Under the pieces are notes generated by a model that saw nothing but the letters and a program-made list of their open reading frames with translations, did no database searches and was not told the DNA's origin. A stretch of DNA of 64,000 bases from Escherichia coli (GTDB lineage: Bacteria > Pseudomonadota > Gammaproteobacteria > Enterobacterales > Enterobacteriaceae). The first letter of the stretch is position 1; every line of letters begins with the position of its first letter. The position numbers and the translations under genes are program-made. The stretch lies in assembly GCF_041248615.1 (NCBI RefSeq), contig NZ_CP158426.1. The stretch is one strand, 5' to 3'. Below, one piece after another: positions 15,079 through 18,197 of the stretch.

Positions 15079-17057
<1,979 letters not shown>

Positions 17058-17059
<2 letters not shown>

Positions 17060-18197
17060 GTCAGAGCCCCTCGATCTCAATCAGTTAGCGCAAAAAATTA
17101 AACAGTGGGGGCTGGAACTGGGCTTTCAGCAGGTAGGTATTACCGATACCGATCTCAGCGAGTCCGAGCCCAAACTGCAAGCATGGCTGGACAAACAATA
17201 CCACGGCGAAATGGACTGGATGGCGCGTCACGGTATGCTGCGCGCTCGCCCCCATGAATTATTGCCCGGTACGCTGCGCGTGATCAGCGTGCGGATGAAT
17301 TACCTTCCTGCTAACGCCGCATTTGCCAGCACGCTGAAAAACCCTAAGCTCGGCTATGTGAGCCGTTATGCGCTGGGCCGTGACTATCACAAACTTCTGC
17401 GCAACCGACTCAAAAAGCTGGGCGAGATGATTCAGCAACATTGTGTTTCGCTGAATTTTAGACCGTTTGTCGATTCTGCGCCTATTCTCGAGCGCCCGTT
17501 AGCTGAAAAAGCAGGACTTGGCTGGACAGGTAAGCACTCACTTATCCTCAATCGCGAGGCCGGTTCGTTCTTCTTTTTAGGCGAATTGCTGGTCGATATT
17601 CCTCTGCCCGTGGATCAACCAGTCGAGGAAGGATGCGGTAAATGCGTGGCCTGTATGACGATTTGCCCGACCGGAGCCATCGTCGAGCCATATACCGTCG
17701 ATGCTCGCCGCTGTATCTCTTATCTCACCATCGAACTGGAGGGGGCGATCCCGGAAGAGTTGCGACCGTTAATGGGAAATCGTATTTATGGTTGCGATGA
17801 CTGCCAGCTTATCTGCCCGTGGAATCGCTATTCGCAACTCACTACAGAAGACGATTTCAGCCCGCGTAAGCCGCTACACGCACCGGAACTCATTGAGTTA
17901 TTCGCCTGGAGTGAAGAGAAGTTTTTAAAAGTCACGGAAGGTTCGGCGATTCGCCGTATAGGTCACCTGCGTTGGCTGCGTAATATTGCCGTAGCCTTAG
18001 GCAATGCGCCCTGGGATGAAACGATTTTGACAGCGCTGGAAAGTCGTAAAGGTGAGCACCCACTTCTCGATGAGCACATAGCGTGGGCGATTGCGCAGCA
18101 AATCGAGAGGCGAAATGCGTGCGTGGTCGAAGTGCAATTACCGAAAAAACAGCGTCTGGTTCGGGTGATTGAAAAAGGGTTACCGCGTGACGCCTGA
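17058..18197 (+). CDS. queG: Epoxyqueuosine reductase QueG (379 aa from ATG at 17058)
   Basis: Translation [27 protein letters not shown]... with the 4Fe-4S ferredoxin Cys cluster; ATG shares 2 nt with the nnr start codon on the opposite strand. Confidence 0.9.

What the first reader, a model, noticed from the sequence alone, without database searches (positions are those of the whole stretch)
17057..17060. Divergent nnr and queG genes share initiation-codon nucleotides
The queG ATG (17058-17060, plus strand) and the nnr ATG (complement of 17057-17059) overlap by 2 nt, so the two divergent genes have no intergenic region at all. Each promoter and ribosome-binding site must lie inside the other gene's coding sequence. 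Such head-to-head start-codon overlap constrains both N-termini and implies transcriptional interference or coupled regulation of a metabolite-repair enzyme and a tRNA-modification enzyme.
Basis: seen in the sequence. Interest (0 to 1): 0.3.

Follow-up and report, generated by a model that had tools for sequence, protein, structure and literature searches.

The report
Head-to-head overlapping nnr and queG starts
The E. coli genes nnr and queG really do begin back to back on opposite strands, sharing two bases of their start codons, so each gene's promoter and ribosome site sits inside the other gene; this is rare and conserved, but it is already in the reference annotation and in published transcript maps.

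Summary
Window 17057-17060 reads CATG: queG ATG is 17058-17060 (+) and nnr ATG is the complement of 17057-17059. RefSeq and K-12 MG1655 annotate the same 2-nt overlap.

Comparative data support both starts. CATG is kept in 30 Enterobacterales species, in Tolumonas and in one MAG. The first nnr ATG has a conserved Shine-Dalgarno (GAGGGG, made of queG codons 4-5). The second nnr ATG (M6) is not conserved outside Enterobacteriaceae, and queG has no other canonical start.

- A queG extended -10 (TGGTATACT, 17018-17026) lies in nnr codons 12-14.
- An nnr -10 (TAAAAT, 17460-17455) lies in queG codons 133-135 and is held by a rare AGA codon.
- Both fit published start sites: queG about -24, nnr about -388.

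The promoters therefore face each other across about 413 bp. Published work already shows RNase III-cut double-stranded RNA here and lists queG-nnr as a divergent excludon. No regulatory consequence has been shown. No N-terminal proteomics was found.

Verdict: real, rare, conserved, already known. Modest interest.

The parts
17057..17060 (.). CATG tetranucleotide holding both start codons (queG ATG 17058-17060 on +; nnr ATG = complement of 17057-17059)
   Evidence: Sequence read. Same annotation in RefSeq and K-12. Conserved in 30 Enterobacterales loci, Tolumonas L072 and MAG L064.
17058..18197 (+). queG CDS, epoxyqueuosine reductase, 379 aa
   Evidence: TIGR00276 at 2e-153 with homology from residue 14. 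ORF. No other ATG/GTG/TTG lies in frame between the published TSS (about 17034) and codon 25.
15512..17059 (-). nnr (yjeF) CDS, bifunctional NAD(P)HX epimerase/dehydratase, 515 aa, first gene of the long yjeF...rlmB operon
   Evidence: NF007856 over 1-509/510. The conserved YjeF_N domain (TIGR00197) starts only at residue 17. Operon description from Conway 2014.
17018..17026 (+). queG promoter, extended -10 TGG-TATACT, encoded by nnr codons S12-I13-P14 (AGT ATA CCA); a weak -35-like TCGGCG lies at 16998-17003
   Evidence: Fixed at -40/-41 in all 36 Enterobacterales loci. TGnTAnnnT lies within 90 nt upstream of queG in 63 of 79 loci against 10% in shuffles. It is kept where nnr is no longer adjacent. 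AGT is used in 29/29, CCA in 28/28, and rare ATA/TTA in 30/30. The published delta-PqueG primers delete window 16998-17028.
17034..17057 (+). queG 5' UTR, about 24 nt, U-rich with no Shine-Dalgarno; equals nnr codons 1-9 on the other strand
   Evidence: The end of the Conway overlap region, 4392114 (U00096.2), maps to window 17034. That is 7-8 nt after the -10. Anti-SD duplex is only -2.2 kcal/mol, the null mean. No conserved RNA structure.
17067..17072 (-). nnr Shine-Dalgarno GAGGGG, 7 nt before the nnr ATG, made of queG codons P4 (CCC) and L5 (CTC)
   Evidence: Anti-SD duplex is -7.2 kcal/mol, against -3.2 for the M6 ATG; null 5th percentile is -6.4. L5 is CTC in 28/28. A purine-rich SD is kept even where QueG L5 became F.
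17455..17460 (-). nnr promoter -10 TAAAAT, inside queG codons N133-F134-R135 (AAT TTT AGA); start site about 17447-17448
   Evidence: Conway promoter 4391701 (U00096.2) maps to window 17447. GGTCTAAAATTCAGCG is invariant in 18 Enterobacteriaceae genera. Arg135 is AGA in 18/18 there although AGA is 4.5% of Arg codons in these genes. It is CGN in 12/12 species of other families.
17060..17447 (-). nnr 5' UTR, about 388 nt, fully antisense to queG codons 1-130
   Evidence: Derived from the Conway start site and the nnr ATG. No Rfam family matches.
17034..17447 (.). Region transcribed on both strands (about 413 bp), source of RNase III-cleaved dsRNA
   Evidence: p19-captured cluster S-361, 4,391,754-4,392,109, maps to window 17039-17394. 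Lybecker dsRNA MS-212, 4391717-4392100, maps to window 17048-17431. Conway overlap is 413 nt. The window is identical to K-12 over 16963-17224 and 17361-17512.

Best explanation
nnr and queG are a genuine head-to-head overlapping gene pair. Both proteins start at the shared CATG.

Each gene's expression signals are written into the other's codons:
- queG is transcribed from a weak extended -10 promoter (TGGTATACT) inside nnr codons 12-14. Its mRNA has a leader of about 24 nt with no Shine-Dalgarno.
- In Enterobacteriaceae, nnr and the operon behind it are transcribed from a -10 (TAAAAT) inside queG codons 133-135. That mRNA has a 388-nt leader antisense to the first third of queG. It is translated from a Shine-Dalgarno formed by queG codons 4-5.

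The two promoters therefore fire towards each other across about 413 bp. The two 5' ends are complementary, pair in vivo and are cut by RNase III. This is the architecture of a divergent excludon.

What is shown and what is inferred:
- Shown here: the sequence, the conservation, and the codon-level constraint.
- Shown in the literature: the transcript ends and the dsRNA.
- Inferred from the geometry only: that each transcript lowers expression of the other, by polymerase collision or promoter occlusion, by masking the partner's ribosome site, or by RNase III cleavage.
- Likely origin (inferred): both ORFs grew at their 5' ends across a once short spacer. Relatives have spacers of 11-146 nt. 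The first ~16 Nnr residues and ~4 QueG residues lie outside the conserved domains.
For: Gene identity and annotation.

Start codons:
- The ATG pair is conserved in 30 of 30 Enterobacterales with an adjacent nnr.
- The nnr M1 Shine-Dalgarno scores -7.2 kcal/mol against -3.2 for M6. It is conserved across families.
- M6 is replaced by E, K or R outside Enterobacteriaceae.
- queG has no alternative canonical start downstream of its start site.

Embedded signals:
- Synonymous variation is lowest gene-wide in queG codons 1-12 (0.32 against a mean of 0.73).
- Single-codon fixation is enriched in nnr codons 1-16 (5/7 against 15/261, p = 2.7e-5) and in queG codons 1-12 (3/7 against 13/264, p = 0.005).
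- Rare codons ATA/TTA (nnr 13) and AGA (queG 135) are fixed exactly where the -10 hexamers need them.
- In Brenneria the genes are 146 nt apart. queG keeps TGTGGTAAAAT, while the nnr codons drift from SLPH to VLPC.

Transcripts:
- The Conway operon promoter and overlap end fall 7-8 nt after each -10 that I found independently.
- dsRNA from two methods covers the same interval.
- queG-nnr is one of 16 divergent excludons in E. coli in ExcludonFinder.
- A delta-PqueG strain was built by deleting exactly this -35 to -10 stretch.
Against: - No N-terminal peptide or initiation-site profiling data for either protein was found.
- Within Enterobacteriaceae, nnr codon 6 is nearly always NTG (ATG, GTG, TTG, CTG) and once ATT. 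A second or alternative initiation at M6 is therefore not excluded.
- MAG L019 carries a 1-nt insertion that leaves only the M6-equivalent ATG in frame.
- Both promoters lack a good -35, and the strict consensus scan reported none in 16600-17500.
- The nnr -10 is confined to Enterobacteriaceae, whereas the CATG overlap is older. nnr must use another promoter in Yersinia, Pantoea and others.
- My reading of the Conway coordinates comes second-hand, from a supplementary row in Huang et al..
- No experiment seen measures an effect of one gene's transcription on the other.
- Low synonymous variation at gene 5' ends is also expected from selection on a gene's own initiation region.
Confidence: 0.75

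Rival explanations
1. The overlap is real, but nnr is translated mainly or also from the second in-frame ATG (M6, window 17044-17042). The functional start codons would then be 13 nt apart rather than overlapping.
For: Residues 1-16 lie outside the conserved YjeF_N domain. Codon 6 is ATG, GTG or TTG in 14 of 18 Enterobacteriaceae loci, and CTG or ATT in the other 4. MAG L019 has only this ATG in frame.
Against: M6 has no Shine-Dalgarno: -3.2 kcal/mol, close to the null mean of -2.3, against -7.2 for M1. Codon 6 is E, K or R in Yersiniaceae, Budviciaceae, Hafniaceae and one of two Erwiniaceae, and TTG in Pantoea, while M1 and its SD are universal. All isolate genomes keep M1 in frame, including a 9-nt in-frame insertion in L010. 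Even if true, 13 nt leaves no room for promoters, so the architecture is unchanged.
Confidence: 0.12
2. The overlap and the face-to-face promoters are a neutral by-product of 5' extension of two weakly expressed genes. The dsRNA is noise cleared by RNase III, and there is no selected regulatory link between queG and the nnr operon.
For: No phenotype or expression effect is reported. The delta-PqueG and nnr::frt-kan strains were used as neutral controls. Once signals are embedded, purifying selection on each signal alone explains the conservation. The arrangement was lost without obvious consequence in Brenneria, Pectobacterium, Photorhabdus and Xenorhabdus. The nnr promoter position differs between families.
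Against: The locus is among the 20 strongest coding-gene dsRNA clusters in stationary phase. It is detected as an excludon in at least 50% of RNA-seq samples. A close divergent arrangement, from overlap to a 146-nt spacer, persists across several gammaproteobacterial orders.
Confidence: 0.4
3. A shared back-to-back bidirectional promoter co-activates both genes (coupled positive regulation).
For: Divergent gene pairs often share regulatory regions.
Against: There is no DNA between the genes. The mapped or predicted start sites lie downstream of each other's start codons, so the promoters converge. The two transcripts overlap by about 413 nt and form dsRNA. That geometry cannot arise from back-to-back promoters.
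Confidence: 0.03

Closest known systems
Divergent excludons, first described in Listeria and catalogued for E. coli by ExcludonFinder (PMC12288877)
   Same: Neighbouring genes on opposite strands whose 5' transcripts overlap. One long 5' UTR runs antisense to the partner. RNase III-processed dsRNA is formed. queG-nnr is itself listed among the 16 divergent E. coli excludons.
   Different: Here the coding sequences themselves overlap by 2 nt, so there is no untranslated spacer at all. The defining outcome of an excludon, mutually exclusive expression, has not been demonstrated for this pair.
Other E. coli 5'-overlapping divergent pairs that yield p19-captured dsRNA (rsd-nudC, asd-yhgN, rhlB-trxA, cpxR-cpxP; PMC7373196)
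   Same: The same class in the same data set: divergent mRNAs that pair at their 5' ends and are cut by RNase III.
   Different: As far as I know (not checked here), those pairs have an intergenic region. In queG-nnr all signals are inside codons, with visible codon-choice consequences (AGA, ATA/TTA, CTC).
Noncontiguous operons, a class catalogued alongside excludons by ExcludonFinder (that they were first described in Staphylococcus aureus is from memory)
   Same: ExcludonFinder lists yjeV-queG-nnr as one of 3 such units in E. coli. Transcription on the nnr strand can run from yjeV across the whole antisense of queG into nnr.
   Different: I did not examine read-through from yjeV or glyVXY. 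The main nnr start site reported by Conway lies inside queG, not upstream of it.
Short head-to-head (divergent) gene overlaps created by 5'-end elongation (PMC2716372, PMC4161906)
   Same: The overlap involves only the start codons. Both proteins carry short N-terminal extensions outside their conserved domains. Relatives have short spacers instead.
   Different: Many divergent overlaps are suspected mis-annotations (from my own knowledge, not checked here). This one is supported by order-wide conservation of both ATGs and of the nnr Shine-Dalgarno.

Membership tests
Head-to-head (divergent) overlapping gene pair | Two protein-coding genes on opposite strands whose 5' coding ends overlap | tested here: met
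   CATG at 17057-17060. RefSeq and K-12 carry the same annotation.
Head-to-head (divergent) overlapping gene pair | Both annotated start codons are the ones actually used | tested here: inconclusive
   Comparative and Shine-Dalgarno evidence favours both. No N-terminal peptide or initiation profiling data was found. nnr M6 is not excluded.
Divergent excludon | Transcripts of the two neighbouring genes overlap at their 5' ends | tested here: met
   The -10 elements found here lie downstream of the partner's start codon. Published ends give a 413-nt overlap. The pair is listed as a divergent excludon.
Divergent excludon | The overlap forms dsRNA that RNase III processes | not testable with these tools
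   Literature only. It is a top-20 p19-captured cluster, and dsRNA antibody pull-down gave MS-212 (PMC7373196).
Divergent excludon | Expression of one gene represses the other (mutually exclusive expression) | not testable with these tools
   No expression or protein measurement for this pair was found in the papers read.
Bidirectional (back-to-back) promoter region | Two promoters point away from each other within a shared upstream region | tested here: not met
   No intergenic DNA exists. The queG -10 is at 17021-17026 (+) and the nnr -10 at 17460-17455 (-), so they point towards each other.
Nnr, bifunctional NAD(P)HX epimerase/dehydratase (NF007856) | Full-length match above the curated cut-off, with both YjeF_N and YjeF_C domains | tested here: met
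   1026.6 bits against a cut-off of 703, over positions 1-509/510. TIGR00197 covers residues 17-220 and TIGR00196 covers 231-499.
QueG, epoxyqueuosine reductase (TIGR00276) | Match above the curated cut-off | tested here: met
   510.3 bits against a cut-off of 200, over residues 14-348.

The most novel reading that the evidence does not exclude
The order-wide retention of the CATG overlap, together with the embedded face-to-face promoters, is a selected reciprocal antisense switch. The short queG mRNA would cover the nnr Shine-Dalgarno and start codon. The long nnr leader would cover the queG promoter, start codon and first 130 codons. Queuosine maturation (queG) and the long nnr-led operon (which includes tsaE, miaA and hfq) would then be expressed in a mutually exclusive, growth-phase-dependent way.
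Probability: 0.15. Interest if true: 0.45.

Novelty: already known. Interest (0 to 1): 0.2.

Why it matters
As it stands, this is a clean and well-conserved example of a rare layout. One study counted 2 divergent overlaps among 663 overlapping pairs in E. coli. Promoters and a ribosome-binding site are written into the partner's codons, and they leave visible marks on codon choice (rare AGA, ATA and TTA codons; fixed CTC).

That makes it a useful teaching and benchmarking case:
- for start-codon annotation;
- for detecting regulatory signals inside genes from synonymous-site conservation;
- for designing synonymous mutations that remove one promoter without changing either protein.

If the antagonism were shown to be functional, it would link queuosine tRNA modification to the operon that carries tsaE, miaA and hfq. 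The layout itself, the overlapping transcripts and the dsRNA are already in the reference annotation and in published genome-wide studies.

Tried and rejected
- The strict sigma-70 consensus scan of 16600-17500 found no promoter. Both promoters lack a good -35, so they were found only through conservation and published ends.
- An Rfam scan of 16700-17700 at E <= 1 gave no match. The 388-nt nnr leader is not a known riboswitch or RNA family.
- RNAalifold on 16 species, on both strands around the junction, predicted no conserved pairs. I dropped the idea of a conserved hairpin that sequesters the nnr Shine-Dalgarno.
- A PDB search found no E. coli Nnr structure that could show the N-terminus. 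The best match, Thermotoga TM0922, aligns only from residue 61.
- Searches for direct evidence on start codons all failed:
  - The TetRP supplements, Giess 2017 and TRAINSPOTTER 2026 do not mention these genes.
  - No supplement is held for the retapamulin preprint.
- Searches for independent start-site tables also failed:
  - The paper I requested as PMC4288677 (intended: Thomason 2015) is not held.
  - The Conway 2014 supplement is not held.
  - The held Cappable-seq supplements contain no coordinate near the predicted sites and may be truncated.
- I considered sigma-54 or sigma-32 promoter readings for the two low-variation islands inside nnr. The sequence did not fit either by eye, and the sigma-70 consensus scan found nothing there.
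- I rejected an in-frame upstream start for queG. Between the published start site (17034) and the ATG, the only near-cognate codon is ATT at 17043, which is not conserved.

Full report
**1. What is there**

Window 17057-17060 reads CATG.
- On the + strand, ATG 17058-17060 opens a 379-codon ORF ending at 18197. It is QueG, epoxyqueuosine reductase (TIGR00276, 2e-153).
- On the - strand, ATG 17059-17057 opens a 515-codon ORF ending at 15512. It is Nnr/YjeF (NF007856, 1026.6 bits, profile positions 1-509 of 510).
- The two start codons share bases 17058 and 17059.

The window is Escherichia coli. The 1301-bp query around the junction is 100% identical to two complete genomes and 95-99% identical to the other 5423 matching records (5425 of 5426 genomes match). 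RefSeq/PGAP annotates the same 2-nt overlap in the identical genome. K-12 MG1655 does too: queG is 4392928..4394067 (-) and nnr is 4394066..4395613 (+).

**2. Is it more than chance, and are the starts right?**

Conservation within and beyond E. coli:
- The 76-bp junction has no mismatch in 5121 of 5425 E. coli genomes.
- A QueG-seeded scan of one genome per species returned 80 loci.
- In every Enterobacterales locus with an intact adjacent nnr, both genes start at the same CATG. There are 30 such loci, counting the window. They include Escherichia, Citrobacter, Enterobacter, Cedecea, Pantoea, Mixta, Serratia, Yersinia, Rahnella, Budvicia, Acerihabitans and Edwardsiella.
- The same CATG occurs in Tolumonas (L072) and in a gammaproteobacterial MAG (L064).
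- Three Alteromonadaceae may have a 1-nt CAATG overlap with a TTG nnr start.
- Other gammaproteobacteria have spacers of 11 to about 100 nt, and Brenneria has 146 nt.

Evidence on the nnr start:
- The first ATG is preceded by GAGGGG with a 7-nt spacer. The anti-SD duplex is -7.2 kcal/mol. The null mean is -2.3 and the null 5th percentile is -6.4.
- The only other candidate, M6, scores -3.2.
- The Shine-Dalgarno is kept in all families, even where the QueG residue on the other strand changed from L to F.
- M6 is replaced by E, K or R outside Enterobacteriaceae.
- Against this, codon 6 is nearly always NTG (once ATT) within Enterobacteriaceae. MAG L019 also has a 1-nt insertion that leaves only the M6-equivalent ATG in frame. 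A secondary start at M6 is therefore not excluded.

Evidence on the queG start:
- There is no other canonical start codon between the published transcript start and codon 25.
- The ATG is conserved even where nnr is not adjacent.

I found no N-terminal proteomics or initiation-site profiling data for either protein.

Rarity: Huvet & Stumpf counted 663 overlapping adjacent pairs in E. coli, of which only 2 were divergent (PMC4161906).

**3. Where the signals are**

*queG promoter.*
- TGG-TATACT at 17018-17026 is an extended -10.
- It sits at -40/-41 from the queG ATG in all 36 Enterobacterales loci.
- A TGnTAnnnT motif lies within 90 nt upstream of queG in 63 of 79 loci across gammaproteobacteria, against 10% in shuffles.
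- It is kept where nnr is absent or displaced, as in Photorhabdus, Xenorhabdus, Pectobacterium and Brenneria.
- On the other strand it is nnr codons S12-I/L13-P14. These use AGT in 29/29, CCA in 28/28, and the rare ATA (18/18) or TTA (12/12).
- In Brenneria the genes are separated. queG keeps TGTGGTAAAAT, while the nnr codons have drifted from SLPH to VLPC. The nucleotide constraint therefore belongs to the promoter.

*nnr promoter.*
- TAAAAT at 17460-17455 (- strand) lies in queG codons N133-F134-R135.
- GGTCTAAAATTCAGCG is invariant in 18 Enterobacteriaceae genera.
- It depends on Arg135 being AGA. AGA is used in 18 of 18 of these, although it is only 4.5% of Arg codons in these two genes. 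Arg135 is CGN in all 12 species of other families, which thus lack this -10.

*nnr ribosome site.*
- GAGGGG is queG codons P4-L5. L5 is CTC in 28/28.

*Synonymous variation.*
- It is lowest gene-wide in queG codons 1-12 (0.32 against a mean of 0.73).
- Single-codon fixation is enriched in nnr codons 1-16 (p = 2.7e-5) and in queG codons 1-12 (p = 0.005).

*queG leader.*
- It has no Shine-Dalgarno (-2.2 kcal/mol).

*Structured or known RNA.*
- No conserved RNA structure and no Rfam family was found.

**4. Agreement with published experiments**

The window is identical to K-12 across both promoter regions, so K-12 data transfer directly.

- Huang et al. 2020 (PMC7373196) list yjeS/yjeF as cluster S-361, one of the top 20 protein-coding-gene clusters of p19-captured RNase III dsRNA in stationary phase. 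Its type is 5' divergent, at U00096.2 4,391,754-4,392,109.
- Their supplementary row adds a Lybecker dsRNA (MS-212, 4391717-4392100). It also gives the Conway operon with promoter 4391701 (+), terminator 4408049 and an overlap of 4391701-4392114, or 413 nt.
- The nnr ATG lies at 4392089 in those coordinates. The nnr start site is therefore 388 nt upstream (window 17447), and the queG start site is 24 nt upstream of its ATG (window 17034).
- Each lies 7-8 nt after the -10 that I had located from conservation alone.
- ExcludonFinder (PMC12288877) lists queG-nnr among 16 divergent excludons of E. coli, and yjeV-queG-nnr among 3 noncontiguous operons.
- Conway et al. call yjeF...rlmB the most complex operon in their data, with 14 genes and 8 promoters.
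- A delta-PqueG strain was made by deleting window 16998-17028, the -35-like to -10 stretch (PMC10950094). In the passages I read, that paper measured datA RNA rather than queG.

**5. How it most likely works**

- The promoters face each other across about 413 bp.
- Polymerases from the nnr promoter run through the queG promoter. Polymerases from the queG promoter run through the nnr promoter.
- The nnr leader is antisense to the queG start codon and to codons 1-130.
- The queG leader is antisense to nnr codons 1-9, and the body of the queG mRNA is antisense to the nnr Shine-Dalgarno and the whole nnr leader.
- Pairing and RNase III cleavage are shown in the literature.
- Mutual repression is inferred from the geometry only. 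I put it at roughly 0.3-0.4.
- A neutral by-product reading is about as likely. It holds that two weak genes extended at their 5' ends, and that the embedded signals were then frozen by purifying selection.
- A shared back-to-back promoter is excluded by the geometry.

**6. Comparison, novelty and score**

The pair is a member of the divergent-overlap class, with one feature open: experimental N-termini. It has the architecture of a divergent excludon. The transcript-overlap feature is met. The dsRNA feature is met in the literature. Antagonistic expression is untested.

All of this is already in the annotation and in published genome-wide data sets, so I rate it 'already known'.

This check adds:
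- the order-wide conservation of CATG;
- the codon-level footprints of both -10 elements and of the Shine-Dalgarno;
- the family-restricted nnr promoter;
- the evidence favouring M1 over M6.

Interest is 0.2.

Noticed in passing
window 18211-18219 and 18373-18381 (- strand): There are DnaA-box matches TTATTCACA and TTATCCACA between the queG 3' end and the tRNA-Gly cluster. This is where the DnaA-inactivating locus datA is described (PMC10950094).
   Followed up: partly
window 18467-18886 (- strand): Three tRNA-Gly(GCC) genes lie at 18467-18542, 18578-18653 and 18811-18886. The spacer between the glyV and glyX equivalents is 157 nt, against 36 nt in K-12. That implies an insertion of about 121 nt in this lineage.
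   Followed up: no
window 15512-15540: The nnr 3' end overlaps the tsaE start by 29 nt on the same strand. RefSeq and K-12 annotate this as well.
   Followed up: no
window about 15950-15991 and about 15869-15895 (nnr codons 357-370 and 389-397): These are the two islands of lowest synonymous variation in nnr across 30 species: ctggcaatcaatcccgataaacgtcacaatcgc and gaaattgaNagNgaNcgcttac, the latter with a fixed rare TTA codon. They may be internal promoters of the operon or other embedded signals. No sigma-70 consensus was found.
   Followed up: partly
window 17047-17100 (+): An out-of-frame upstream ATG sits on the queG leader. It is the reverse complement of the fixed nnr His4 CAT codon. It opens a 17-codon [20 protein letters not shown], that overlaps the queG start. 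There is no evidence of translation.
   Followed up: no
L019:2976-3003: The MAG 'Proteobacteria bacterium CTSoil_132' has a 1-nt insertion between nnr codons 4 and 6, so only the M6-equivalent ATG is in frame. This is either an assembly error or natural evidence that Nnr residues 1-5 are dispensable.
   Followed up: partly
L031:1941-2822: In Pectobacterium zantedeschiae a 293-aa ORF of unknown function is inserted between nnr and queG. queG keeps its TGGTAAAAT -10, and Nnr keeps SLP in a longer N-terminus.
   Followed up: no
window about 18180-18233 (- strand): RefSeq annotates a 17-codon yjeV-like CDS antisense to the queG 3' end. ExcludonFinder lists yjeV-queG as a convergent excludon and yjeV-queG-nnr as a noncontiguous operon.
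   Followed up: no
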